Positions 1 to 14,721 of a stretch of 64,000 nt of DNA are shown here, piece by piece. Source of the DNA: an uncultured Spirochaetaceae bacterium. Its GTDB lineage: Bacteria; Spirochaetota; Spirochaetia; Sphaerochaetales; Sphaerochaetaceae. Both the position numbers and the translations under genes were made by a program. The first letter of the stretch is position 1. Every line of letters starts with the position of its first letter. The notes under the pieces are model-generated. The model saw only the letters and a program-made list of their open reading frames with translations, was not told where the DNA came from and made no database searches. The stretch lies in NCBI GenBank assembly GCA_964482325.1, contig CAYZXD010000001.1:3461-67460 (forward strand), given 5' to 3'.

Positions 1-1747
1 CTGTATTATCGCGGAATACCACAATGACTCCGTTAACGGTGCCAATCGGTCCCAGGATGGGGGACGCCGTCGCTTCCACCGCTATCAACCTCTCATCACG
101 GGTGTGAAGCGTTGCTTGTGCAGAGGCTTCTATCGTTTTCCGTTGAGAGATCGCTTCTGATACAATCGGTTCGCCTATAATATTCAGCACTTGAGAAATC
201 GGTAGGTGCATTGCTTGATCCTCTCGCCATCCGGTCAGCTGTTCTGCTGAGGAATTGAATAGGATGATTTTCCCTGATTCATCGGTTGATATTACTGCAT
301 CCCCGACTGATAACAGCGTGGTTTCCAATCGTCCCTTTTCTACCCAGAGTTGGTTCTGCAGTGCTTTTGCCTGGGTAATATCTTCGACTATGGCTGCTAG
401 TTTTCCCTTTTCAGGTACATAGGCAGAGAGTTTCAGCGATTTGCCATATTGATCCAGTGATAGCTCGAATACCTGCGGGGTTCCCCGGAGTGAGACCTCT
501 TTAAATTTACGTATCCACAAATCTGCACCAAGTGGTACGACTTCACGAATTCTTGCTCCCGTAAGTGCAAGAGTCGTTCTTCTCACGATGTGTGCAAACT
601 GAGCATTGACACTTTCAATGATAAAATCGGCCAAATTCCCCTGTTGATCTACCACTGATGTGAGTACCAACAACCCTTGATTCATCTGTTCTACCAGGGA
701 TCGATAGCTTGCTTCACTACGTCGCAATTCGGTTTCTGCTTTTTTTGTAGCCGTGATATCGGTATGGGTACCGTTCATACGAATGGGTCTTCCCTCAGGA
801 GACCATGCTATCACCTTGCCTCGATCCATAATCCAAACCCAATGGCCGTCACGGTGTTTCATTCTGAATTCCGCTTCATAGAATTCCTGTTTGCCTTGAA
901 GGGTCTCTTCAACTTTCTGATTCATCTGCTCAATGTCATCAGGATGAATAAATGATCTCCACGTGTCGTGTGGGAGGTTTCCTAATTCGTCTCGGGAATA
1001 GCCAATCATCTGTGCCCAGCGGTCATTGCATATTGAAGTTCCCGTAGTAAGGTCCCACTCCCAGGTCCCTGCACGAGTTGCCTCAATGACCCCTTTCATA
1101 CTTTCATTTGCAGCACGGATTGACTGTTCAGCAGTTTTTCGTCTCGCTTCAAAATCGTGAACCCAACGATTTCCACCGTAGGTCATCGCACCGAAGATGG
1201 TTAAAAGTAAACCATTCCCAATTATTAGGATGGTGTGGATCAAACGCGTCTTTTGATGAAAATCCTGTTGTAGCTGCATAAGGATTTCTTGTTCTGTTAC
1301 GATGGTCTGTTTCAACTGCTGTATAAGTTCTCCACTTCCGATTACCTCAGCATCTGAGAGACGGATCAGTTCAAACCAACGGGTAAAACCGTTTTGTATC
1401 TCTCGTAACTGCTCAAATCGTACATCCTGATCGTTAAGAGAGCGCATCAAGTCTGCAATCGTTGTCTGAAAGGCTAGAGCTGCATCATCTGCAGCGATGA
1501 CGTACTGGTCATGCTTAGTCATGGTATAGCGTAACTGGTTCAGTTCTACGGTGATAAGCTGTTTCTGAAGTTTTTCAAGTTGTCCGATTACCTCCTGTGC
1601 ACGACTATTTTCCTGAGCTGCTGCCTGAGTCTGCTTTGAGCTATACAGACCTAACCCCATGATGGAAAATACCATGATGGTTAGGACAACAAACGAGAGC
1701 AACAACTTTTTCGTGTCAGAAGAGCTTCGAGTTTTGATCTTTTTCAC
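1..1747 (-). CDS. Membrane-anchored CHASE3-like + multi-PAS sensor protein, 3'-truncated by the window edge (output domain not visible)
   Basis: Missing from the ORF track because it has no stop in the window. Manual translation from GTG at 1747 gives MKRSKLEALLDTKKLLLSFVVLTIMVFSIMGLGLY (TM), a helical periplasmic region, a second TM, PAS_3 (WEWDLTTG...RWAQMIGY...IHPDD...EFRMKHRDGHWVWIMDRG...GTHTDIT) and further PAS repeats ending ...SPILGPIGTVNGVIVVFRDNT at the edge. Confidence 0.85.
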   Translation of the reverse strand, partial: MKKIKTRSSSDTKKLLLSFVVLTIMVFSIMGLGLYSSKQTQAAAQENSRAQEVIGQLEKLQKQLITVELNQLRYTMTKHDQYVIAADDAALAFQTTIADLMRSLNDQDVRFEQLREIQNGFTRWFELIRLSDAEVIGSGELIQQLKQTIVTEQEILMQLQQDFHQKTRLIHTILIIGNGLLLTIFGAMTYGGNRWVHDFEARRKTAEQSIRAANESMKGVIEATRAGTWEWDLTTGTSICNDRWAQMIGYSRDELGNLPHDTWRSFIHPDDIEQMNQKVEETLQGKQEFYEAEFRMKHRDGHWVWIMDRGKVIAWSPEGRPIRMNGTHTDITATKKAETELRRSEASYRSLVEQMNQGLLVLTSVVDQQGNLADFIIESVNAQFAHIVRRTTLALTGARIREVVPLGADLWIRKFKEVSLRGTPQVFELSLDQYGKSLKLSAYVPEKGKLAAIVEDITQAKALQNQLWVEKGRLETTLLSVGDAVISTDESGKIILFNSSAEQLTGWREDQAMHLPISQVLNIIGEPIVSEAISQRKTIEASAQATLHTRDERLIAVEATASPILGPIGTVNGVIVVFRDNT

Positions 1748-1895
1748 TGGAGCCTCAACAGTTTTGCGTACTATCGTCGTTATAGTATATGAGTTGAGAA
1801 AATGCAAGGAAAAATGTAGGAAGTTGTTGTATAAGTACTCGATAAGAGTTGAAATAAATCAGATAATGACATGTACTTATCTGCAGGAGCACTTG

Positions 1896-2273
1896 ATGAG
1901 AAAACGTCATAAGTTACTGTGGCGGCCTCGGTACATTCTCCTTGCAGTATCTCTGATCTATGCAGGGTTTCTCATACTGTTGGGAATTGATGTCTTCTCG
2001 ACTGAACCCATCACACTGGCTCAGATATCAGCCTTTGTGATACATAGCATCCCTGGCTTATTGGTTGCACTCAGTGCCATGATCGGATTGCATCGACCGC
2101 TGTGGGGAGCTTTCGGATATGCAGGGATCACCATAGCCTTCTGGTTGTTTTTTCATACGGGCAGGGATATCATAGCCATATTGGTGGTTCATGGGTTCCC
2201 CATCACTCTTACATTTCTTTATGGTTTACGATGGGTACGTTCACGGAAAAGCCGGGAGGATACTGATGCTTAA
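1896..2273 (+). CDS. Small multi-pass membrane protein of unknown function
   Basis: Start moved to ATG 1896 (AGGAG RBS upstream); the 1659 extension overlaps the real minus-strand gene. About 4 hydrophobic segments; overlaps the next gene by 8 nt. Confidence 0.75.
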   Translation: MRKRHKLLWRPRYILLAVSLIYAGFLILLGIDVFSTEPITLAQISAFVIHSIPGLLVALSAMIGLHRPLWGAFGYAGITIAFWLFFHTGRDIIAILVVHGFPITLTFLYGLRWVRSRKSREDTDA

Positions 2274-2664
2274 AAAGCGCTATATAGTTTTACTGGTGCT
2301 TGTTCTGCTCATTGTTGCAGGTAGTATCATGATGTGGGTGTTTACCCAACGTGTACAGCAGGGATTAGAGCAGCTTTCTGCAATGACGATCACTGATCCT
2401 GATCTTACCCAATTGTCTGATGGAGTATATCGAGGCGAGTACGCAGCTTTTCCGGTGAAAGTAGTTGTTGACGTGACGGTTCGAGATCATAGTATTACCG
2501 ACATCACCCTGATCGAGCACCGGCAAGGACAAGGTAAAGATGCCGAGGCTTTGGTTCCCCGGATAGTACAGGAACAGCGAGTAACGCTCGATGTGGTCAG
2601 TGGTGCTACCTACAGCAGTCTGGTGATATTAAAAGCTGTAGAAAATGCACTTCATGAGTTATAG
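2266..2664 (+). CDS. Membrane-anchored FMN-binding (flavinylation target) protein
   Basis: GGGAGG RBS, ATG 2266, N-terminal TM anchor, FMN_bind motif DVVSGATYSS. Confidence 0.85.
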   Translation: MLKKRYIVLLVLVLLIVAGSIMMWVFTQRVQQGLEQLSAMTITDPDLTQLSDGVYRGEYAAFPVKVVVDVTVRDHSITDITLIEHRQGQGKDAEALVPRIVQEQRVTLDVVSGATYSSLVILKAVENALHEL

Positions 2665-3069
2665 TAACTTTTTTGCAAACTCGATAGCCGCAGTATAATC
2701 CTGTTGGTTCGGATGTCCCCATCCATAGATGAGAAAACTTCCCCAGCAGACCACTTCCTCCGTTGCTACCTCTATCCCTTTTGCTACTAAAGCTGCACGG
2801 ACCTCTTTCTGAAAGAATTTCCGACTTGCACAGGAGGTGATCAGAGCAGCCTGCTTAACGTGCTGGGCATCAAGTGATTCGGCAAAAGCAATTAGATCAG
2901 GATTACTCTTCCCTCCATAGATGCCGCCGACAATAAACAATAGATCAACAGGAGGAATATTCGGCTCTTCTTTGAGGTCTACTGCCTTGATATCGAGTGT
3001 CTGAGCCATTGCGTTGGCAATTTTCCGGCTGTGACCGGTTTTTGTCCGATAGACTATGATACTATTCAT
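2659..3069 (-). CDS. Flavodoxin-family protein
   Basis: IVYRTKTGHSRKIA phosphate-binding loop; start moved to ATG 3069. Confidence 0.8.
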   Translation of the reverse strand: MNSIIVYRTKTGHSRKIANAMAQTLDIKAVDLKEEPNIPPVDLLFIVGGIYGGKSNPDLIAFAESLDAQHVKQAALITSCASRKFFQKEVRAALVAKGIEVATEEVVCWGSFLIYGWGHPNQQDYTAAIEFAKKLL

Positions 3070-3179
3070 GATCGAAAGTATAGTGGGAGAGTAGGGAATC
3101 TGCAACTATTTCCTGATATCAGCTACTTGTTCAGTACTGCTCCTTGGGTGCATACTGGGTTTAGTGTTCAGGGGGAGTC

Positions 3180-3974
3180 ATGATGCATGATCAAAAATTA
3201 ACCGAGCGACTCGAGGCCGCAAAACTAATTGCACAGAAGGCAGGAGCCTTCCTGTTGGAAAGTCGGAAAGGAAATCTGGAAATTACGGCAAAGGGAGTTA
3301 ATGATTTCGTCACGGTGGTGGATGTACAGTCAGAACGGATGATTAAAGAGTATCTACATGACTGTTTTCCCGAAGATAATTTCCTCGGTGAAGAGATGGG
3401 CTATGAATCATACGGTGACGGGGGCACGTGGATCATTGATCCGATCGACGGTACCACCAACTACATTCACGGGCTTCCCGGTTTTTCAATCAGTATCGCT
3501 TATGAAATGTCTCAGTGGGATCCGATAGTCGGAGTTGTGTATGATCCTATCACTGATGAGCTCTATAGTGCGCAGCGGGGGAAAGGTGCCCACTGCAACG
3601 GTGTTCCCATTGCTGTTTCCCATATCGAAGAGCCTCATGATACGGCAATTATGATCAGTCCACCTTTGCGATTCCGTTATCGGCTTCCGGCATTCATGAC
3701 GGTGTATCAGGCTGTATGTGCCGATTCAGGAGAGACGCGCGATTATGGTTCAGCTGCTCTGCATCTCTGCTACATAGCGCATGGGCGTGGTGAAGCATTC
3801 ATTGAATTTGGTCTTGGATATCATGATATTGCTGCAGGTACGGTAATACTGAAAGAATCGGGAGGTCAGATCTCACAACTGAATCTTCTGGACGTGCAGC
3901 CGTTTACCAGCAGCCTCATAGCAACCAATGCCGTGATGCATGCCTATTTTGTCAGTAAGGTGCAGATTAGCTGA
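3180..3974 (+). CDS. suhB: Inositol monophosphatase family protein
   Basis: DFVTVVD, FLGEE, WIIDPIDGTTNY, GSAALHLCYIA and DIAAG motifs. Confidence 0.9.
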   Translation: MMHDQKLTERLEAAKLIAQKAGAFLLESRKGNLEITAKGVNDFVTVVDVQSERMIKEYLHDCFPEDNFLGEEMGYESYGDGGTWIIDPIDGTTNYIHGLPGFSISIAYEMSQWDPIVGVVYDPITDELYSAQRGKGAHCNGVPIAVSHIEEPHDTAIMISPPLRFRYRLPAFMTVYQAVCADSGETRDYGSAALHLCYIAHGRGEAFIEFGLGYHDIAAGTVILKESGGQISQLNLLDVQPFTSSLIATNAVMHAYFVSKVQIS

Positions 3975-6469: not shown

Positions 6470-7990
6470 TTAAGCTCTTGCTCCGTACGTATTTTCCATA
6501 TCTACAGTAGCGATATCGATACCAAGTACCTCTGCCACGCCTTTCCCATAGGCCGGATCAGCAAGATAGCAGTGTCTGATGTGCCGTTTCTGCACCAACT
6601 CCGTGGTGCCCTGCATATTCCGGGCAGTATTGGCAAACAATCGCTGCTGCTCATCTGATTTCATGATATTAAACAGTGCACCCGCCTGTTCGTAGTAGTG
6701 ATCGTCATCCTCTCTGAAATCATAGGTGTCAATGGGACCCTGGCCATCATAGGCTGGTTCAGCCAGCTCCGGCTGGTCTTTCCACATGCCATAGGAGTTG
6801 GGATTGTAATGGACGGAACCACCGAAATTCCCGTCTACACGCATCATGCCATCTCGATGGAAGTGGTGAGTCTCCACTTTACTCTTATTTACCGGTATCT
6901 GATAATGGTTGACCCCAAGACGATACCGTTGTGCATCGCCATAGGCGAACAGCCGGCCTTGCAGCATTCGATCAGGCGAATAGCCAATTCCCGGAACACT
7001 GTTTGCCGGATTGAAAGCCGCCTGTTCAACATCCATAAAGTAATTATCGGGATTACGGTTCAATTCAACAAATCCCACTTCATGCAAAGGGTAATCATCG
7101 TGGTACCATACTTTAGTCAGATCAAAGGGATTGTCAGGATGGGTAAGTGCCTGTTCTTCAGTCATAATCTGGACATACATCGTCCACTTGGGGAAATTGC
7201 CCTGCTCAATTGCCTGAAAGAGATCCTTCTGGTGTGATTCCCGATCTCTTCCTACAAGCTCTTCAGCCTCGGCATCCGTCAGATAGTCTATTCCCTGCTG
7301 CGTTTTTAAAGTAAATTTTACCCAGAATCGCTGATTATCGGCATTGATCAGTGAATAGGTATGTGACCCATAGCCATTCATATGGCGATAGCTTTTTGGA
7401 ATTCCTCGATCGCCCATGGTTATGGTTATCTGATGCAGTGCCTCCGGAAGTGCAGACCAGAAATCCCAATTGTTCTGAGCTGATCGCATATTGGTTCTCG
7501 GATCGCGTTTTACTGCATGATTGAGATCGGGAAACAGCATGGGGTCTCTAAAGAAGAACACAGGAGTATTATTTCCCACCAGATCCCAGTTTCCCTCATC
7601 AGTATAGAACTTCATGGCAAACCCGCGGATATCGCGTTCCGCATCGGCTGCCCCCCGTTCTCCGGCAACGGTGGAGAAACGGATAAACATATCGGTTTTC
7701 TTTCCTACCTCAGCAAACAGACTGGCTTTTGTCCATCTGGTGATATCATGGGTTACGGTAAAGGTTCCGAAAGCCCCGGATCCTTTTGCATGCATACGCC
7801 GTTCGGGAATGACTTCCCGATCGAAGTGGCTCATTTTTTCCAGATACCATGCATCCTGCATCATCACGCCGCCACGGCGACCAGCAGTCTGAATATTTTC
7901 ATTATGTGCGATAGGGCGTCCGCTAATGGACGTCAACGGTTTCTTTTCAGTGGAATCTCTTCCGTCTCTATCTACCTTGTCATGTGCCAT
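6470..7990 (-). CDS. katA: Monofunctional heme catalase, small-subunit type
   Basis: [15 protein letters not shown] (distal His), [25 protein letters not shown] (proximal Tyr); GGAGG RBS supports ATG 7990. Confidence 0.96.
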
Positions 7991-8084
7991 AATCACCTCC
8001 CGATGGTTTGTGCAGTATGACATATTCTGAACAGATTTCAAGTCTGAAATATATTTAAGAGGAATAGGAGGTTATGACGGTTGT

Positions 8085-9233
8085 TCACGTAGATACGGTT
8101 TCTGTCGTAGAGACCTGGAAGGGGCTCTCCTGTGCCGCGTACAGTTTTTGTGTGGGATAGGCAAACTCGATCCCCTTTTCATTGAAAGTGCGGAATATAT
8201 TCCGGTAGATTTCCTGCTGAACATCCATATACACCACATAATCGGGTGACGGGACATAGTAAACCGTCTCGAAATTCAGTGCATATGCACCGAATGATTG
8301 GAAGTGAGAGCGATCACAGACCACGCCCTCAATGGTTGTTACCGAGTTGATGATTGATCTGATCAGAGAAGGGATTTCCTCCACATGTTCCTGCGTTGTT
8401 TCATAGGTGACTCCAACGGAGAATACTACGCGCCGACGGGTCATCTGTTTATAGTTATGGATACGTGAGGCAATCAGATCAGAGTTCGAAATAATCAGTA
8501 CCTCACCACTGAGGACACGAATTCTACTCGATTTAATGCCGATTTTTTCCACCACTCCGGCTTTATCGCCAAAGACTACAAAATCTCCGAGTTCAAATGG
8601 TTTGTCCATGAATATGACAAAATAACTGAAGAGGTCTCCCAGTATGCCCTGAGCTGCTATAGCTACAGCAATACCACCAACGCCAAGTCCAGCAAGAGCC
8701 GTTGAAACATCCAGTCCAAGATTAGCCAGAAGGAATATTGCCCCAACGATCCACAGTAAAAATTTTATCAGCGACAACAATGGTTTGAGGTTCTTTTCCT
8801 GATCATGATTACTGTCTTCCCGTTCAAAGTGTCGGGAAAAAGCCAGTTCTATTCCCTTATTCACCGATCGCACGATGATGAAAGTCATGATAATGGCAAA
8901 GATTGCCTGTACGGTTTTCTCTATGCGCGTATCAAATGCAACGATTTGCACAGCAATGGATAGTATCCCCAAAAAAGCAAGTGGCACGGCAATGCGCTGA
9001 AAAAACCTGAGTAATCCAAGCGATTTTCCTTTGCTTTCCGGTGCCCCCTCCTCCCGTTTGCTCTCACGAATGCGAATGCGTTTTTTCAGGATATGGTTGA
9101 TAGGTGTCAAAACCAGTAGCCCAATAATTACCAGCAGAATTGCCTGCATGTACAGGTGGGTGTTGGGTCCGAGGAAATGATTGAATGCGAGTATAGATTC
9201 CATATGCTCATGATACTGAGTTTTATCAGACAA
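8085..9233 (-). CDS. mscS: Small-conductance mechanosensitive channel (MscS family)
   Basis: AGLGVGGIAVAIAAQGILGDLFS, KPFELGDFV, GVVEKIGIKSSRIR; start uncertain (TTG 9233 or ATG 9203). Confidence 0.92.
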   Translation of the reverse strand: MSDKTQYHEHMESILAFNHFLGPNTHLYMQAILLVIIGLLVLTPINHILKKRIRIRESKREEGAPESKGKSLGLLRFFQRIAVPLAFLGILSIAVQIVAFDTRIEKTVQAIFAIIMTFIIVRSVNKGIELAFSRHFEREDSNHDQEKNLKPLLSLIKFLLWIVGAIFLLANLGLDVSTALAGLGVGGIAVAIAAQGILGDLFSYFVIFMDKPFELGDFVVFGDKAGVVEKIGIKSSRIRVLSGEVLIISNSDLIASRIHNYKQMTRRRVVFSVGVTYETTQEHVEEIPSLIRSIINSVTTIEGVVCDRSHFQSFGAYALNFETVYYVPSPDYVVYMDVQQEIYRNIFRTFNEKGIEFAYPTQKLYAAQESPFQVSTTETVST

Positions 9234-10367: not shown

Positions 10368-11600
10368 ATGCCGATTCGCGTTACGAGTGAAATTGGAAAA
10401 CTTCGATCGGTGCTGCTGCACCGGCCAGGGAAGGAACTTGAGTCTCTGACACCGCAGTATCTTGATTCCATGCTCTTTGAAGATATTCCGTATCTTGAAC
10501 AGATGCAGCGTGAACACGACCAATTTGCTTCTCTGCTGGAATCGCAGGGATGCACGGTCTGGTACATTGAGCAGATGCTGGAGTACGTGCTTACTGATCA
10601 GCAGGTCAGAAAAGATGTGATTTTGCATCTTATTGCATCGGCACAGATTCATGAACCTGCAATACGGGAGAGTATGTATGATTACCTTTCCCAACTTGAA
10701 TGCGAAGCATTAGCCGCTTGTTGTATTAAAGGAGTACTGAAAGCTGAAATCGATAATACGGTTCGCCATAAGACCTTGAGTTACTATATTCGAAATACCT
10801 ATCCCTTTTACATTCCGCCGGTACCTAATCTTTACTTCACCCGGGATCCCGCAACGGTAATTGGTTCCGGCATCGCTGTACATACCATGAAAAATGATGC
10901 GCGGAGGCGGGAGAACTGGCTCCTCTCTTTGATTGCTCTGCATCATCCGCTCTTTTCAGAAACCGGTAACTATATTGATTACAGTGATGGAAGCAGTATC
11001 GAAGGTGGCGATATTCTGCTGCTCAATGAGCATTGTGCCGTAGTGGGCAGCAGTGCGAGAACCGGTACCTGGGCGATCGAGTCATTTGCCCGGCGCATGA
11101 TGCAGCCTGCAGAGTTGGGTGGGCAGAATCTTACTGAGATACTGGTAGTTCAAATTCCCTATACCCGTGCTTATATGCACCTTGATACCGTTTTTACTAT
11201 GGTGGATCGGGATGCTTTCTCCATCTATGGCGGGATCGAGATGTCCCTTCGTGTCTTCAGTCTACGCATGTATCGTGATGGACAGCTGCAAATTCACGAA
11301 GAGAAAAATCTGCATCAGGCTCTAGCCCGAGTGCTTCATGTCCCTGCAGTACGATTGATTCCCAGCGGAGGGCCGGATCATACGGTTGCTGCCCGTGAGC
11401 AATGGAACGACAGTACCAATACCCTTGCCGTTGCTCCGGGGACGGTGATTACGTATCAACGTAATACGGTATCCAATGATACGCTGGATCGGGAAGGAAT
11501 CACCGTTTTACCTATCCGGGGATCGGAGTTGGTCCGTGGCCGCGGGGGACCACGGTGTATGAGTATGCCGTTATACCGGGAAGCAGTAATTTCTGAGTAG
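10368..11600 (+). CDS. arcA: Arginine deiminase
   Basis: SEIGKLRSVLLHRPG, FTRD, EGGD, MHLDT, GRGGPRCMS catalytic set intact. Confidence 0.95.
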   Translation: MPIRVTSEIGKLRSVLLHRPGKELESLTPQYLDSMLFEDIPYLEQMQREHDQFASLLESQGCTVWYIEQMLEYVLTDQQVRKDVILHLIASAQIHEPAIRESMYDYLSQLECEALAACCIKGVLKAEIDNTVRHKTLSYYIRNTYPFYIPPVPNLYFTRDPATVIGSGIAVHTMKNDARRRENWLLSLIALHHPLFSETGNYIDYSDGSSIEGGDILLLNEHCAVVGSSARTGTWAIESFARRMMQPAELGGQNLTEILVVQIPYTRAYMHLDTVFTMVDRDAFSIYGGIEMSLRVFSLRMYRDGQLQIHEEKNLHQALARVLHVPAVRLIPSGGPDHTVAAREQWNDSTNTLAVAPGTVITYQRNTVSNDTLDREGITVLPIRGSELVRGRGGPRCMSMPLYREAVISE

Positions 11601-11822
11601 CTAAATAATCCACGAAAGAGCGAGTTAGACATTGATCCAGTTCGTGACAGCGTGTTGTTTTGTGGAGATATGTAAACGATTTCATTGTGCTATATATAGA
11701 TACAGTAATAATTTTAGTAGTTTTAGTATGTTAAATTTGGTAAATATTGGGCATATGATCATTATGAAACTAATAACTTACGGTATGCATAAAAAAATAT
11801 TTAAAAATTTTATGATATACCC

Positions 11823-11851
11823 TTGATTAAAGTTTTTAATTTTACTATTAT
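11823..11851 (+). promoter_or_regulatory. Sigma70 promoter of the small-peptide gene
   Basis: TTGATT-N17-TATTAT inside an approximately 20% GC stretch. Confidence 0.65.
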
Positions 11852-11891
11852 CCAAGTAGATAAAAAATTTAGTCAAGGAGGAGTAAACATC

Positions 11892-11981
11892 ATGGAAAAA
11901 ATTACGTGGTTTGCAACTTATTTCGGTGTCGTAGCAGGTGTCGTCTCCCTCGCTCTGGTTCTGGTCAGACATATAGCATAG
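11892..11981 (+). CDS. 29-aa single-TM hydrophobic peptide MEKITWFATYFGVVAGVVSLALVLVRHIA (candidate type I toxin or small membrane protein)
   Basis: Below the ORF-track length cutoff. Strong SD AAGGAGG (11875-81), own promoter, one hydrophobic helix, followed by a structured 3' region and terminator. Confidence 0.7.
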   Translation: MEKITWFATYFGVVAGVVSLALVLVRHIA

Positions 11982-11996
11982 ATAGTTGGATTAAAA

Positions 11997-12120
11997 CTGA
12001 GCGGCGAGGACCTTAGGGAGTTCGATTCGTCGTCAGCGGTACTGCTGTACCGCGCAAGCAGGTGCTAAGCCTGCAGTGAAGGGCCTTTCCTCGATACATG
12101 AGGAGAGGCCTTTGTTATCT
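11997..12120 (+). other. Four consecutive hairpins forming a structured 3' UTR and terminator
   Basis: Stems 11997-12036, 12036-12053 (GCGGTAC/GTACCGC), 12058-12074 (GCAGG/CCTGC) and a 14-bp stem 12079-12113 followed by U-rich TTGTT. Confidence 0.65.
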
Positions 12121-12174
12121 TTGCTACCCGATGAGAACTATTCCTGGTATATTCTCATTTCAGGAGTATCGCGT

Positions 12175-12762
12175 ATGAGACAACAGAGTGCCTATAAAAG
12201 GACTTTCACCCCAGGGGAAACGTATCGGATTGTCACTGCCATGCCAGCTGCTGTACGTGAGCTTCGTCTGGCTAAACGGCAGCAGCTGTTAAGCAGTTCG
12301 TTTATCGAACGGATTATGCTTGCGGTGACTGAGGTGAATGGATGTGCACTGTGTTCCTATGCGCATACCAAAATGGCGTTACAGGAGGGCCTTACAAAAG
12401 AAGAGATTGCTGGGCTGTTAACCGGCGATGCTGCATCAATTCCTTCCGAAGAAGCTCCTGCGCTACTCTTTGCTCAACACTTTGCGGAGATGAAAGGAAC
12501 CTACGATCCTGAAATGTATGCCCTGTTGGCACAACAATACACTCCAGAGATAGCCCGCGGTATTCTCGGGTCAGCTCAGGTGATACTTGCCGGTAATGCC
12601 TATGGTATCCCCTACAGTGCTTTATTCTCCCGGATGCGCGGTAAACCGTATCGAAACAGCAGCGTGTGGTATGAGCTCGGCATGATAGTGTTTGGGATAC
12701 TCATCATGCCGGTAGCATTAGTGCACGGGCTGTTTCGTACTACATCTGCACCCCGACGGTGA
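12175..12762 (+). CDS. Carboxymuconolactone decarboxylase / AhpD-like protein with C-terminal TM
   Basis: ERIMLAVTEVNGCALCSYAH (AhpD-core CxxC); AGGAG RBS supports ATG 12175. Confidence 0.85.
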   Translation: MRQQSAYKRTFTPGETYRIVTAMPAAVRELRLAKRQQLLSSSFIERIMLAVTEVNGCALCSYAHTKMALQEGLTKEEIAGLLTGDAASIPSEEAPALLFAQHFAEMKGTYDPEMYALLAQQYTPEIARGILGSAQVILAGNAYGIPYSALFSRMRGKPYRNSSVWYELGMIVFGILIMPVALVHGLFRTTSAPRR

Positions 12763-13972
12763 TGCTGAACGACCAGAAAGCGTCATGAAGATTATATGCA
12801 ACATCAACGCCCATAGCAGGAATGGCGATCTTTCTCAGATACACGCGAGATCCGATACCCGGACCATAGAATGGCCGTAATGCAATCAGTTCATTACCAT
12901 ATCGGCCAATTTCAAAGTAGGGGGAGATGGTAATCACCGACCAGGAAGTTTTCAGCACCGGGATATCACAGGCGGCCGCCGCAGATAGCCATTGATCAGC
13001 ACTGGACGCCTTGAAAGGCAGTGTACGATATCCATCTTGGGCATCAATTGCCGTCTCGGCAAACAGGGGCATATCCCCGATACCTCCCGATGTGAGTAAC
13101 CTGAGACGAACCTGCTCTCCGAGCAGGGTGCTCCAACTGAAGCTACCTGAAATTTCCCATCCGTTTTCCATGATAAGCGTGCGGGCATTCGCATCAGATT
13201 CGATGCCGATAGGCAACACGTCGTGTAAATAGGTGTTCTCATATGAAAGGGTGAGTTCAGGCTCAAGATAACTGCTCAGATCAGGAAAAAGCGCAGGTGA
13301 TACCGAATCGAATTCCCACGTTTGGTACCCGATGGTACCTTCGGCAGTGAAATTTTTGTAGGTATACCCGATACCCACTCCAATATTCCGGTAATCGGCA
13401 GTGTACGATCGGACCGTGTTGGCAGGGTCGGTCTGCATCACATAGGATGCCCGTCCAAACCCTCCGGTTACGGTGTACGACCATGGTCTATTCAGGGTGG
13501 CAGGATCGGAAAACACCAAGAGACCGCGAAGTCCATCGGTACTGCCGTAGAGTGCAGTCAGAAGAAATTTCTGGTAGCCGAGCAGGTTTGATTCAATCAG
13601 GAATAGTCCACCCCGAAATTTTTCCCCGTCTGATGCGAAATACGGTACGGGAATGAGTGTCCATTTCTCCTCAAGGTATACCGAAAGCTCTGCATCCTGT
13701 CCGGAAGGCTGAGGGATCAGATTGACCGCTACCTGAGCGAACAGATCGGTACGCTCAAGCTGTTCTGTTATGATTTCGCTATCCTGTGGGGAAATCATAT
13801 CACCAATCTCAAACGGAATGTTGGATCGTATGACCGATTCTTTTGTTCGTTTGAGGCCTTCAATGGTAATTGCTCGTAACCGGTAGGACTCATTTGCTTC
13901 TGCAAGAGCAATAGCGGGTACCATAATCAAGCATACGATACAGATGAGTAAAATTCGATTTTTCAGATGCAC
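12740..13972 (-). CDS. Compact Omp85/BamA-TamA family outer-membrane protein (single POTRA + barrel)
   Basis: Signal peptide, POTRA (ITIEGLKRTKESVIRS...LERTDLF...V.L.EKWTLIP), ESNLLG junction motif, beta-strand-rich C-terminus. Confidence 0.8.
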   Translation of the reverse strand: MHLKNRILLICIVCLIMVPAIALAEANESYRLRAITIEGLKRTKESVIRSNIPFEIGDMISPQDSEIITEQLERTDLFAQVAVNLIPQPSGQDAELSVYLEEKWTLIPVPYFASDGEKFRGGLFLIESNLLGYQKFLLTALYGSTDGLRGLLVFSDPATLNRPWSYTVTGGFGRASYVMQTDPANTVRSYTADYRNIGVGIGYTYKNFTAEGTIGYQTWEFDSVSPALFPDLSSYLEPELTLSYENTYLHDVLPIGIESDANARTLIMENGWEISGSFSWSTLLGEQVRLRLLTSGGIGDMPLFAETAIDAQDGYRTLPFKASSADQWLSAAAACDIPVLKTSWSVITISPYFEIGRYGNELIALRPFYGPGIGSRVYLRKIAIPAMGVDVAYNLHDAFWSFSITVGVQM

Positions 13973-14088: not shown

Positions 14089-14721
14089 ATGCGACGATAT
14101 ACCATAACGATCTTAGTAATGTTGCTGCTGACATTGTCTGTCTTTGCAGCTGGAAATAGGGAAGAGAGTATACCGATACGGATGACCGGTGACCCGATCA
14201 CCACGGTCCCGGGATCCATCAGCGATTATGAGGGACATCCCGTAGCAATCTTTGCCGGTGGCTGTTTTTGGGGCGTGGAGAGTATGTTTGAACAGCTCCC
14301 CGGTGTACTTGATGCCGTATCCGGCTATACCGGAGGAACTTTGGAATTTCCCACTTACCGATATGTGAGTATGGGGAGAACCGGTCATGTCGAGGCGGTG
14401 GCAGTCTTTTATGATCCGCAGGTGACTGATTACGAAACACTCGCCCGCTATTTCTTTGAAATACATGATCCCACGCAGGCGGGCGGACAAGGACCGGATA
14501 TCGGGCCGATGTATGAATCGGTGATCTTTCCAGGCACAGAAGAGGAGTGGGCTATTGCTGAGCACCTGATTCAGACTCTGAAGCAAATAGGATATGACGT
14601 GGTTACCAGTATCGAACAACGATCGATATTCTATCGTGCTGAAGGATTCCAGCAGGATTACTATGAGCAAAACGGGTCTGTGCCATACTGTCATGCCTAT
14701 ACAAAACGGTTCCCGGATTAA
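14089..14721 (+). CDS. msrA: Exported peptide-methionine (S)-S-oxide reductase
   Basis: AGGCFWGVE catalytic motif, TGHVEAV, YCH resolving Cys; N-terminal signal peptide. Confidence 0.92.
   Translation: MRRYTITILVMLLLTLSVFAAGNREESIPIRMTGDPITTVPGSISDYEGHPVAIFAGGCFWGVESMFEQLPGVLDAVSGYTGGTLEFPTYRYVSMGRTGHVEAVAVFYDPQVTDYETLARYFFEIHDPTQAGGQGPDIGPMYESVIFPGTEEEWAIAEHLIQTLKQIGYDVVTSIEQRSIFYRAEGFQQDYYEQNGSVPYCHAYTKRFPD

What the first reader, a model, noticed from the sequence alone, without database searches (positions are those of the whole stretch)
11823..12120. Unannotated 29-aa hydrophobic peptide gene with type I toxin-antitoxin-like mRNA architecture
Seen: own promoter, strong SD, peptide MEKITWFATYFGVVAGVVSLALVLVRHIA, and a roughly 140-nt 3' UTR with four hairpins. 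The predicted 5' end (AGATAAAAAA, 11858-67) is complementary at 9 of 10 nt to the 3' end (TTTGTTATCT, 12111-20). TTCCTC (12087-92) could pair with the SD. Known: hok, ldr, fst and aapA type I toxins are about 30-50-aa single-helix peptides whose mRNAs are silenced by 5'-3' fold-back and by antisense RNAs. Inference: a new type I toxin family, or a small regulatory membrane protein. I could not identify an antisense promoter with confidence.
Basis: partly seen in the sequence, partly recalled or inferred. Interest (0 to 1): 0.66.

Follow-up and report, generated by a model that had tools for sequence, protein, structure and literature searches.

The report
Conserved 28-residue spirochaete membrane peptide gene
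This is a real, strongly conserved gene for a 28-29-residue single-helix membrane peptide found only in Sphaerochaetaceae spirochaetes, with its own regulated promoter and a partly masked ribosome-binding site; nothing shows a toxin-antitoxin pair, so it is best read as a new family of small, tightly controlled membrane proteins.

Summary
The ORF (window 11892-11981, MEKITWFATYFGVVAGVVSLALVLVRHIA), its promoter, its strong SD and its terminator are real. The peptide is under strong purifying selection: pN/pS is about 0.03 within the genus Pleomorphochaeta. It forms a tiny family of 28-aa peptides restricted to Sphaerochaetaceae, single-copy here but in tandem arrays of 3-5 in two other genomes.

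- The 5'-3' complementarity is no better than shuffled sequence.
- TTCCTC is simply one arm of the terminator.
- The 140-nt 3' UTR is not conserved even within the genus.
- I found no conserved antisense promoter or terminator.

Two new features emerged.
- Every promoter-bearing copy carries a LacI-type operator-like palindrome 100-145 bp upstream of the -35. Most also carry TGATGAT-type repeats.
- Synonymous sites of codons 16-19 are frozen (Ser19 is TCC in 15/15 copies) because they pair with the SD and pre-ATG bases, a weak hairpin predicted mainly in nascent transcripts.

Best reading: a new, transcriptionally and translationally restrained small membrane protein (YohP/AcrZ-like class). 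A type I toxin remains possible at about 17%.

The parts
11670..11685 (.). LacI-family operator-like palindrome ATGTAAACGATTTCAT (core AAACGATT)
   Evidence: Invariant in 5 Pleomorphochaeta species. One such core (WA-N-CG-N-TW, e.g. TGTAAACGGTTACA, TGTAATCGTTTACA) lies -165 to -214 from the ATG in nearly every promoter-bearing unit of every genus. It is also duplicated with each tandem copy in G042. The only intergenic match of its kind near this locus.
11753..11767 (.). Second palindrome (CATATGATCATTATG), positional equivalent of TGATGATATCATCA in other genera
   Evidence: Conserved block in the genus. It is a perfect TGATGATATCATCA in G023a and near-perfect in G063, G079 and G065. The regulator is unknown; a regulon search in this genome was uninformative.
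11810..11819 (.). TGATGAT-type half-site (TTATGATATA) abutting the -35
   Evidence: Conserved as T(T/G)ATGATAT + CCNC + TTGATT in Pleomorphochaeta, G023a and G063/G079.
11823..11851 (+). Sigma-70-type promoter TTGATT-17-TATTAT
   Evidence: The -35 (TTGATT/TTGACA) and -10 (TATTAT/TATATT/TAGATT) are conserved at the same distance from the ATG in all units.
11858..11891 (+). Predicted 5' UTR with SD AAGGAGGAG (11875-11883); the TSS is inferred, not measured
   Evidence: AAGGAG lies 7-9 nt before the ATG in all 16 copies.
11892..11981 (+). 29-aa ORF MEKITWFATYFGVVAGVVSLALVLVRHIA: one transmembrane helix with a small-residue face T5-G12-(A15)G16-S19
   Evidence: Within the genus, 13 of 16 variable ORF columns fall at codon position 3 and pN/pS is about 0.03; across genera the ratio is 0.27. 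Invariant residues are M1 K3 T5 W6 Y10 V17 A21. No Pfam, NCBIfam, PADLOC or PDB match.
11880..11891 (+). 5' arm of the SD-occluding helix: GGAG (11880-83) and ACAUC (11887-91)
11937..11948 (+). 3' arm, an intragenic anti-SD: GGUGU (11937-41) and CUCC (11945-48), codons 16-19
   Evidence: Ser19 is TCC in 15/15 copies and Val18 is GTC in 11/12, although TCC and GTC make up only 16-20% of their codon sets genome-wide and in highly expressed genes. The duplex with the SD region is -11 to -15 kcal/mol. It beats 1000 synonymous recodings in every copy (fraction as good 0.001-0.17). The second helix is lineage-specific. This helix closes the MFE fold in 6 of 7 lineage representatives.
11982..12078 (+). 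Species-specific 3' UTR insert with hairpins; not conserved
   Evidence: Unique in the genome and not alignable to congeners. In the predicted full-length fold, 11999-12030 pairs with the anti-SD region 11936-11955 (P about 0.9). Comparable pairing beats shuffles only in G042 and G063.
12079..12121 (+). Intrinsic terminator (15-pair stem, U-rich tail)
   Evidence: Nearly every homologue has a terminator 57-170 nt after its stop.

Best explanation
The locus encodes a genuine small membrane protein, the founding member of an undescribed, Sphaerochaetaceae-restricted family of 28-29-residue single-pass peptides.

Shown:
- The reading frame is under strong purifying selection.
- The whole peptide is essentially one hydrophobic helix. 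It has a conserved small-residue face (T5, G12, A15/G16, S19, including a G12xxxG16 motif) and a conserved aromatic face (W6, Y10).
- Each gene unit has its own sigma-70-type promoter, strong SD and terminator.
- A LacI-family-type operator palindrome travels with nearly every promoter-bearing unit. Most lineages add TGATGAT-type repeats, one of them touching the -35.
- Codons 16-19 are frozen at synonymous sites and are complementary to the SD and pre-ATG bases.

Inferred:
- Transcription is gated by a LacI-type regulator and probably a second regulator.
- Translation is damped because the ribosome-binding site is transiently occluded by the intragenic anti-SD as soon as codon 19 is transcribed, so peptide output per transcript is kept low.
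- Once made, the peptide inserts into the cytoplasmic membrane. The more basic C-terminus (R/K26, H27) suggests C-in topology.
- It then acts through helix-helix packing with a larger membrane protein or with itself. That would modulate a membrane function under particular nutrient or stress conditions, in the manner of the E. coli small membrane proteins AcrZ, MgtS, KdpF or YohP.
- The partner is unknown. The neighbouring MscS-type channel is the only recurrent candidate and is not obligate.
For: Coding:
- Within the genus, 13 of 16 variable ORF columns are at codon position 3, with pN/pS about 0.03; across genera pN/pS is 0.27.
- There are 18 copies in 11 genomes of 4 genera, all 28-29 aa with an AAGGAG SD.

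Distribution:
- The family is absent from about 400 other Spirochaetota genomes and from viral contigs.
- An exhaustive HMM search of 1.84 billion representative proteins gave only 5 hits, all the same family.
- It sits in a syntenic core-chromosome setting among housekeeping and stress genes (MscS, catalase, arcA, CMD/AhpD, MsrA, GGT), not on a mobile element.

Regulation:
- The promoter and operator-like palindromes are conserved across genera and duplicated with each tandem unit.

Translation control:
- Synonymous-site freezing and SD complementarity.

Operon-like pairs:
- In G043 two peptide ORFs sit 50 nt apart with no terminator between them. This suits co-expressed small proteins more than independent toxin modules.

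Precedent:
- Stress-induced small single-TM proteins without an RNA antitoxin are an established class (PMC12648545; YohP, PMC12719787).
Against: - No partner protein is identified.
- The MscS-type gene is adjacent in only 4 of 7 lineages. Its orthologue exists in 34 sampled genomes that lack the peptide.
- The SD-occluding hairpin is weak: the local MFE is no better than shuffles, z about 0. In this genome it is predicted only for nascent transcripts, with P = 0.40 falling to 0.01 at full length.
- Tandem multicopy arrays and cis SD sequestration are also typical of type I toxins.
- The regulators that would bind the palindromes are not identified.
Confidence: 0.6

Rival explanations
1. It is a type I toxin. 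The peptide would depolarise or permeabilise the membrane. Its synthesis would be held in check by cis mRNA structure plus an RNA antitoxin, cis-antisense or trans-encoded, that I failed to detect.
For: - The peptide matches the size and hydrophobicity of TisB, Fst, Ldr, AapA and ZorO-type toxins (from established knowledge).
- A conserved intragenic anti-SD occludes the SD, as in the ORF-embedded hairpin of aapA3 (PMC6733600).
- G042 carries 3 tandem units, each with its own promoter, and G043 carries 5 copies, as seen for ldr, ibs/sib, zor/orz and aapA/isoA.
- The taxonomic range is narrow.
- A weak recurring minus-strand promoter-like site, TTGCAA-16-CATGAT, would start an RNA at -9 and cover the SD.
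Against: - The recurring minus-strand site scores only 8/12, lies entirely within constrained coding and ATG sequence, and is lost in G042.
- There is no minus-strand terminator and no conserved antisense element between the tandem units.
- A hypothetical divergent upstream transcript has no excess complementarity to the mRNA.
- The 5'-3' fold-back and 3' anti-SD are not supported.
- The elaborate conserved transcription-factor-type operators, the co-transcribed ORF pairs and the core-genome synteny are atypical.
- There is no match to any known toxin family.
Confidence: 0.17
2. It is a dedicated accessory subunit or modulator of the neighbouring MscS-family mechanosensitive channel. This is a specific version of the small-membrane-protein reading.
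For: - The MscS-like gene is divergently adjacent in G023a, G042, G043 and G065, and lies 2.7-3.9 kb away in all Pleomorphochaeta.
- All 11 peptide-bearing genomes have this MscS orthologue, against 45 of 201 sampled family genomes overall.
Against: - 34 genomes have the orthologue without the peptide, and no peptide-like ORF sits next to it in 6 of those examined.
- In G063 and G079 the two genes lie on different contigs.
- The operator sites duplicate with the peptide unit, not with mscS.
- Co-occurrence is confounded by phylogeny, since only 4 genera are involved.
Confidence: 0.1
3. It is a secreted hydrophobic peptide: a leaderless bacteriocin, a PSM-like surfactant or a signalling peptide.
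For: Tandem ORFs with individual SDs in G043 recall psm-alpha-type operons (the resemblance is from memory).
Against: - The sequence is uniformly hydrophobic rather than amphipathic or cationic.
- No exporter, immunity or modification genes occur in any neighbourhood.
- There is no leader or cleavage motif.
Confidence: 0.03
4. It is a regulatory leader ORF whose translation, not its product, controls the downstream CMD/AhpD-like gene.
For: The peptide-then-CMD gene order is conserved in the five Pleomorphochaeta species.
Against: - Amino-acid-level purifying selection acts across the whole peptide.
- A strong terminator separates the two genes.
- Other genera have entirely different downstream genes, often convergent.
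Confidence: 0.03

Closest known systems
E. coli stress-induced small single-TM proteins (YohP, 27 aa; also YnhF and the Hemm/Storz set)
   Same: A peptide of 27-29 aa that is almost entirely one hydrophobic helix. It has its own promoter and SD, condition-dependent expression, and no RNA antitoxin described. YohP lowers the membrane potential and triggers a protective low-metabolism state (PMC12719787).
   Different: No sequence similarity. The family is confined to Sphaerochaetaceae. It carries LacI-type and TGATGAT-type operators and an intragenic anti-SD. Function and expression conditions are untested.
Small TM modulators of larger membrane proteins (AcrZ-AcrB, KdpF-KdpABC, MgtS-MgtA, CydX)
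   Same: Size, single helix, and conserved helix faces that suggest specific helix-helix packing (PMC12648545, PMC7267776).
   Different: Those genes usually sit in or are co-regulated with the partner's operon. Here there is no constant partner gene.
AapA/IsoA type I toxin-antitoxin of Helicobacter pylori
   Same: A roughly 30-aa hydrophobic peptide whose SD is masked by CU-rich anti-SD segments, one of them embedded in the ORF and acting co-transcriptionally (PMC6733600, PMC5416894). The loci are multicopy.
   Different: AapA has an overlapping antisense RNA (IsoA) with its own promoter, and a 5'-3' long-distance interaction that is relieved by 3' processing. Neither was found here.
TisB/IstR-1 (E. 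coli)
   Same: A 29-aa hydrophobic peptide whose promoter is controlled by a DNA-binding repressor (LexA), showing that regulated transcription does not exclude a type I toxin (from established knowledge).
   Different: TisB has a divergently encoded complementary sRNA and a standby-site mechanism. No complementary divergent transcript is detectable here.

Membership tests
Type I toxin-antitoxin system | Small hydrophobic membrane-active peptide (about 19-60 aa, one TM helix) | tested here: met
   29 aa with one hydrophobic helix. Membrane activity itself was not tested.
Type I toxin-antitoxin system | An RNA antitoxin (cis-antisense or nearby complementary sRNA) with its own promoter | tested here: inconclusive
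   No conserved antisense promoter or terminator and no complementary divergent transcript.
   The duplex energy of -5.5 kcal/mol equals the shuffle mean of -6.0. The fold-back is not conserved and the 3' UTRs are unrelated.
Type I toxin-antitoxin system | SD sequestered in cis by an anti-SD | tested here: met
   An intragenic CUCC/GGUGU (11937-48) is complementary to the SD and pre-ATG bases. Its synonymous sites are frozen and it beats synonymous recodings in all copies. The hairpin is weak. This feature is not exclusive to toxins.
Type I toxin-antitoxin system | Growth arrest or killing on expression, neutralised by the RNA | not testable with these tools
   Needs experiments.
Known type I toxin sequence families (Hok, Ldr, Fst, TisB, Ibs, ShoB, TxpA, etc.) | Sequence match to the family profile | tested here: not met
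   No Pfam, NCBIfam or PADLOC hit at E up to 1-10.
Bacterial small membrane proteins (<50 aa, single TM) | Genuine protein-coding sORF under purifying selection, with its own translation signals | tested here: met
   pN/pS about 0.03 within the genus; AAGGAG SD in all copies.
Bacterial small membrane proteins (<50 aa, single TM) | One predicted TM helix and membrane localisation | tested here: inconclusive
   The hydrophobic helix spans residues 4-25 by inspection. Localisation was not tested.
Bacterial small membrane proteins (<50 aa, single TM) | Defined protein partner or membrane effect | not testable with these tools
   The only recurrent neighbour, MscS, is not obligate.
LacI-family-regulated gene | Palindromic operator with a central CG (AANCGNTT core) | tested here: met
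   ATGTAAACGATTTCAT at 11670-85; an equivalent site occurs in nearly every promoter-bearing unit. Binding by a LacI-type protein was not tested, and the site lies unusually far upstream (about 145 bp from the -35).

The most novel reading that the evidence does not exclude
The most novel reading my evidence does not exclude is that this is the first type I toxin-like family described in Spirochaetota. A 28-aa membrane peptide would be gated three ways: by a LacI-type sugar-responsive repressor, by a co-transcriptional intragenic anti-SD hairpin, and by an as yet unseen RNA antitoxin or a 3' UTR 'anti-anti-SD' switch. The predicted capture of the anti-SD by 3' UTR segments in this genome, G042 and G063 hints at the latter.
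Probability: 0.15. Interest if true: 0.6.

Novelty: new member of a known kind. Interest (0 to 1): 0.35.

Why it matters
Small membrane proteins are systematically missed by annotation, because 28 aa falls below the usual gene-caller cutoff. Very few have been characterised outside Enterobacteria and Firmicutes.

This locus gives a clean comparative case from spirochaetes, with:
- unambiguous purifying selection on the peptide;
- a conserved multi-operator promoter;
- synonymous-site conservation explained by an SD-masking helix.

It offers directly testable predictions: a LacI-type regulator, the TCC/GTC recoding test, and membrane localisation. It would matter more if the peptide proved to be a toxin or a channel modulator. 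As it stands, it is a solid but modest addition to the small-protein catalogue.

Tried and rejected
- **Rfam:** an E-value scan of 11000-13000 found nothing relevant.
- **5'-3' fold-back and terminator anti-SD:** both are at chance level and not conserved.
- **Repeat or mobile element in the 3' UTR:** the sequence is unique in the genome.
- **Antisense promoters:** only the coding-constrained TTGCAA-16-CATGAT recurs. The stronger TTGACT-18-GATAAT (11876-11847, minus strand) is specific to this genome, and its transcript would run away from the mRNA.
- **Divergent sRNA in the conserved upstream region:** complementarity to the mRNA does not exceed shuffles (one search timed out).
- **Antisense 64-aa ORF (11778-11972, minus strand):** it is codon-antiparallel to the peptide ORF, so the peptide's synonymous changes are non-synonymous in it, and its ATG is lost wherever residue 27 is not His. 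Rejected.
- **Regulon search for the two palindromes in this genome:** the few intergenic hits lie upstream of unrelated genes (a LivG-like ABC ATPase, a rhodanese lipoprotein, aldo-keto reductases). Uninformative.
- **RNAalifold on an ungapped alignment:** this failed because SD-to-ATG spacing differs between lineages. I used per-copy duplex tests and synonymous recoding instead.
- **Anti-SD to 3' UTR 'switch':** it beats shuffles only in G042 and G063. Left as a hint.
- **MscS partnership:** not obligate.
- Structure prediction was not attempted because 29 aa is below the 30-aa minimum.

Full report
**Observation.** The window holds a 30-codon ORF at 11892-11981 (+) encoding MEKITWFATYFGVVAGVVSLALVLVRHIA. 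Upstream lie a sigma-70-type promoter, TTGATT-17-TATTAT at 11823-11851, and a strong SD, AAGGAGGAG at 11875-11883. Downstream is a 15-pair intrinsic terminator at 12079-12113. The predicted mRNA folds into several hairpins with a whole-transcript z-score of -2.9. Rfam finds nothing in 11000-13000.

**Organism and distribution.** Record titles of related loci place the genome in Pleomorphochaeta (Sphaerochaetaceae, Spirochaetota).
- The peptide gene is single-copy here.
- Four other species of the genus carry it at 96-100% amino-acid identity.
- Three further Sphaerochaetaceae genera carry it at 50-79% identity.
- One MAG (G042) has three tandem units about 370 nt apart, each with its own promoter.
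- Another MAG (G043) has five copies, including pairs of ORFs 50 nt apart with no terminator between them.
- A profile search of 400 other Spirochaetota genomes found no further members, and none occur on viral contigs.
- Metagenome contigs add only the same lineages.
- An exhaustive HMM scan of 1.84 billion representative proteins returned five hits, all this family, in two subfamilies.
- There is no hit in Pfam, NCBIfam, PADLOC or PDB sequences.
- The exact 29-aa sequence is already present in public protein sets, and a relative is named 'hypothetical protein'. 'Unannotated' is therefore not confirmed.

**It is a protein.** Within the genus, 13 of 16 variable ORF columns lie at codon position 3. 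Pairwise pS is 0.15-0.57 against pN of 0-0.016. Across genera pN/pS is 0.27. M1, K3, T5, W6, Y10, V17 and A21 are invariant; F11, A15, G16 and S19 are nearly so.

By simple helical-wheel arithmetic (my inference), T5, G12, A15/G16 and S19 form one small-residue face that includes a G12xxxG16 motif. W6, Y10, V17 and A21 form the opposite face. This pattern suggests specific helix packing rather than mere hydrophobicity.

**The proposed type I architecture fails.**
- *5'-3' complementarity.* The 9/10 match between 11858-67 and 12111-20 gives a duplex of -5.5 kcal/mol, indistinguishable from shuffled 3' ends (mean -6.0). It is not recovered consistently in homologues. It also relies on the terminator's U-tail pairing with an A-run.
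- *Anti-SD.* TTCCTC (12087-92) is the terminator's own 5' arm. The G002 and G003 terminators lack such a motif. The predicted SD-3' UTR pairing here is 0.04.
- *3' UTR.* The 130-nt 3' UTR is unique in the genome. It is unalignable even to congeners, whose terminators lie 57-167 nt after the stop.
- *Antisense RNA.* No minus-strand terminator exists in 11300-12700. The strongest minus-strand promoter-like site, TTGACT-18-GATAAT at 11876-11847, is specific to this genome, and its transcript would start upstream of the mRNA and run away from it. The only recurring site, TTGCAA-16-CATGAT, scores 8/12, is made of codons 1-9 and the ATG, and is lost in G042. The three tandem units of G042 share no conserved element beyond operator, promoter, 5' UTR, ORF and terminator. 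A hypothetical divergent transcript of the conserved upstream region shows no excess complementarity to the mRNA.

**What else is there: transcriptional control.** The 230 nt upstream of the ATG is conserved in blocks within the genus, and some blocks recur across genera.
- *LacI-type palindrome.* Nearly every promoter-bearing unit has one LacI-family-type palindrome with a central CG. Examples are ATGTAAACGATTTCAT at 11670-11685 here, and TGTAAACGGTTACA, TGTAATCGTTTACA and GTGAAACGTTTAAC elsewhere. It is centred 165-214 nt before the ATG. It is also duplicated with each tandem unit in G042.
- *Second core.* Some lineages carry a second such core at the promoter itself.
- *TGATGAT repeats.* Most lineages also carry a TGATGATATCATCA-type palindrome (here CATATGATCATTATG, 11753-11767) and a half-site abutting the -35 (11810-11819).
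- *Regulators.* I could not identify them. A regulon search in this genome was uninformative.

**What else is there: translational control.** Synonymous sites of codons 16-19 are frozen. Ser19 is TCC in 15/15 copies, Val18 is GTC in 11/12 and Val17 is GTC in 10/16. Yet TCC and GTC account for only 16-20% of their codon sets, both genome-wide and in highly expressed genes.

The explanation is pairing. GGAG (11880-83) plus ACAUC (11887-91) pair with GGUGU (11937-41) plus CUCC (11945-48).
- In every copy the SD/pre-ATG segment pairs with codons 15-20 at -8 to -15 kcal/mol.
- This is stronger than 1000 synonymous recodings. The fraction of recodings as good is 0.001-0.007 in G043, G042 and G063/G079, 0.018 in G065, about 0.05 in Pleomorphochaeta, and 0.17 at worst.
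- The second helix uses lineage-specific complementary sequences: GCAUC:GGUGU, UGCACU:GGUGUA, GAUUC:GAGUC, CAGC:GCUG and CUAC:GUAG.
- This helix closes the MFE fold in 6 of 7 lineage representatives.
- It is predicted with P = 0.4-1.0 in 11 of 15 nascent-length transcripts.

There are caveats. The hairpin is weak, with a local MFE z-score of about 0. In this genome it is transient: P is 0.40 when transcription reaches 11950 and 0.01 in the full-length RNA. There the anti-SD is predicted to pair with the species-specific 3' UTR (11999-12030, P about 0.9) and the SD with codons 5-9. Similar anti-SD-3' UTR pairing appears in several homologues but beats shuffles only in G042 and G063, so I leave it as a hint.

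An ORF-embedded, co-transcriptionally acting SD-sequestering hairpin is documented for the type I toxin mRNA aapA3 (PMC6733600). Cis SD masking is not specific to toxins, however.

**Context.** Neighbours are chromosomal housekeeping and stress genes.
- In this genome the order is: catalase and an MscS-family channel (minus strand), polyprenyl synthase, arginine deiminase, the peptide gene, a CMD/AhpD-like protein, a POTRA outer-membrane protein, and MsrA.
- In other genera the neighbours are the MscS channel (divergent, adjacent in 4 lineages), gamma-glutamyltranspeptidase, catalase, MsrA, arginine deiminase with an ArgZ-like gene, or an Orn/Lys/Arg decarboxylase.
- The MscS orthologue is present in all 11 peptide-bearing genomes. 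It is also present in 34 sampled genomes without the peptide, and no peptide-like ORF lies beside it in six of those. It is therefore not an obligate partner.

**Interpretation.** The best-supported reading (about 0.6) is a new family of small single-pass membrane proteins. Its synthesis is restrained at two levels: operator-controlled transcription, and a partly masked ribosome-binding site. It would act in the membrane through helix packing, with a partner or with itself. This is comparable in kind to YohP, AcrZ, MgtS or KdpF (PMC12648545, PMC12719787, PMC7267776).

A type I toxin (about 0.17) is not excluded. Peptide size, tandem arrays and cis SD masking all fit. The secreted-peptide and leader-ORF readings are unlikely.

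**Novelty and interest.** This is a new member (a new sequence family) of a known kind. It is a tidy, testable small-protein case from an under-studied phylum, but not a surprise to specialists unless toxicity or a specific partner is demonstrated.

Noticed in passing
window 6473-9233 (-), 10368-11600 (+), 12175-12762 (+), 14089-14721 (+): A cluster of stress-related genes surrounds the peptide gene: a catalase immediately downstream of an MscS-family channel gene (44-nt gap, probably one operon), arginine deiminase, a CMD/AhpD-like CxxC protein and MsrA. In other genera the same peptide sits near catalase, MsrA and gamma-glutamyltranspeptidase. This may be an ancestral oxidative/osmotic stress neighbourhood in these anaerobes.
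   Followed up: partly
window 12175-12762 (+): The CMD/AhpD-like protein (CALC motif) ends in a hydrophobic stretch (WYELGMIVFGILIMPVALVHGLF) that looks like a C-terminal membrane anchor, which is unusual for AhpD-type proteins. Its 3' end overlaps the convergent POTRA-protein ORF (12740-13972, minus strand) by about 20 nt.
   Followed up: no
L046 (G003) 1435-2679 (-) and equivalents in G001, G002, G004 and G023a: A 414-aa protein with LOR/SDH N-terminal and ArgZ-like C-terminal domains (arginine dihydrolase/ornithine-ammonia cyclase type) lies next to arginine deiminase in related species but is missing at this position in the window's genome. This indicates a local rearrangement of an arginine-catabolism cassette.
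   Followed up: no
L037 (G042) 2540-3740; L036/L048 (G043): The peptide gene forms tandem arrays: three complete units (operator, promoter, ORF, terminator) in G042, and two co-transcribed ORF pairs plus a fifth copy in G043. The 3' UTR motif TTGGCA(A/G)CGGAGTT, conserved between G042 units 1 and 2, is the reverse complement of codons 18/19-22 (CTCCGTTGC).
   Followed up: partly
window 11936-11955 with 11999-12030: In the predicted full-length mRNA of this genome, the intragenic anti-SD is captured (P about 0.9) by a GAGCG...GGGAG segment of the species-specific 3' UTR. This would free the anti-SD's hold on the SD. It may be an RNA switch, but it is not statistically supported across species.
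   Followed up: partly
window 11778-11972 (-): A 64-aa ORF runs exactly antisense and codon-antiparallel to the peptide ORF. It is not conserved, because its ATG depends on His27 and the peptide's synonymous changes are non-synonymous in it. It is a by-product of the sequence, not a gene.
   Followed up: yes
G023 C18:194085-194168 (L039); P0010, P0011: A second, divergent subfamily (MDKVTWFLTYFGVVSCVVA...) has the A15G16-to-S15C16 change and no CUCC. Its replacement codons (TCATGCG) are complementary to its own pre-ATG sequence (CGCAT). The SD-region pairing is thus kept by different bases.
   Followed up: partly
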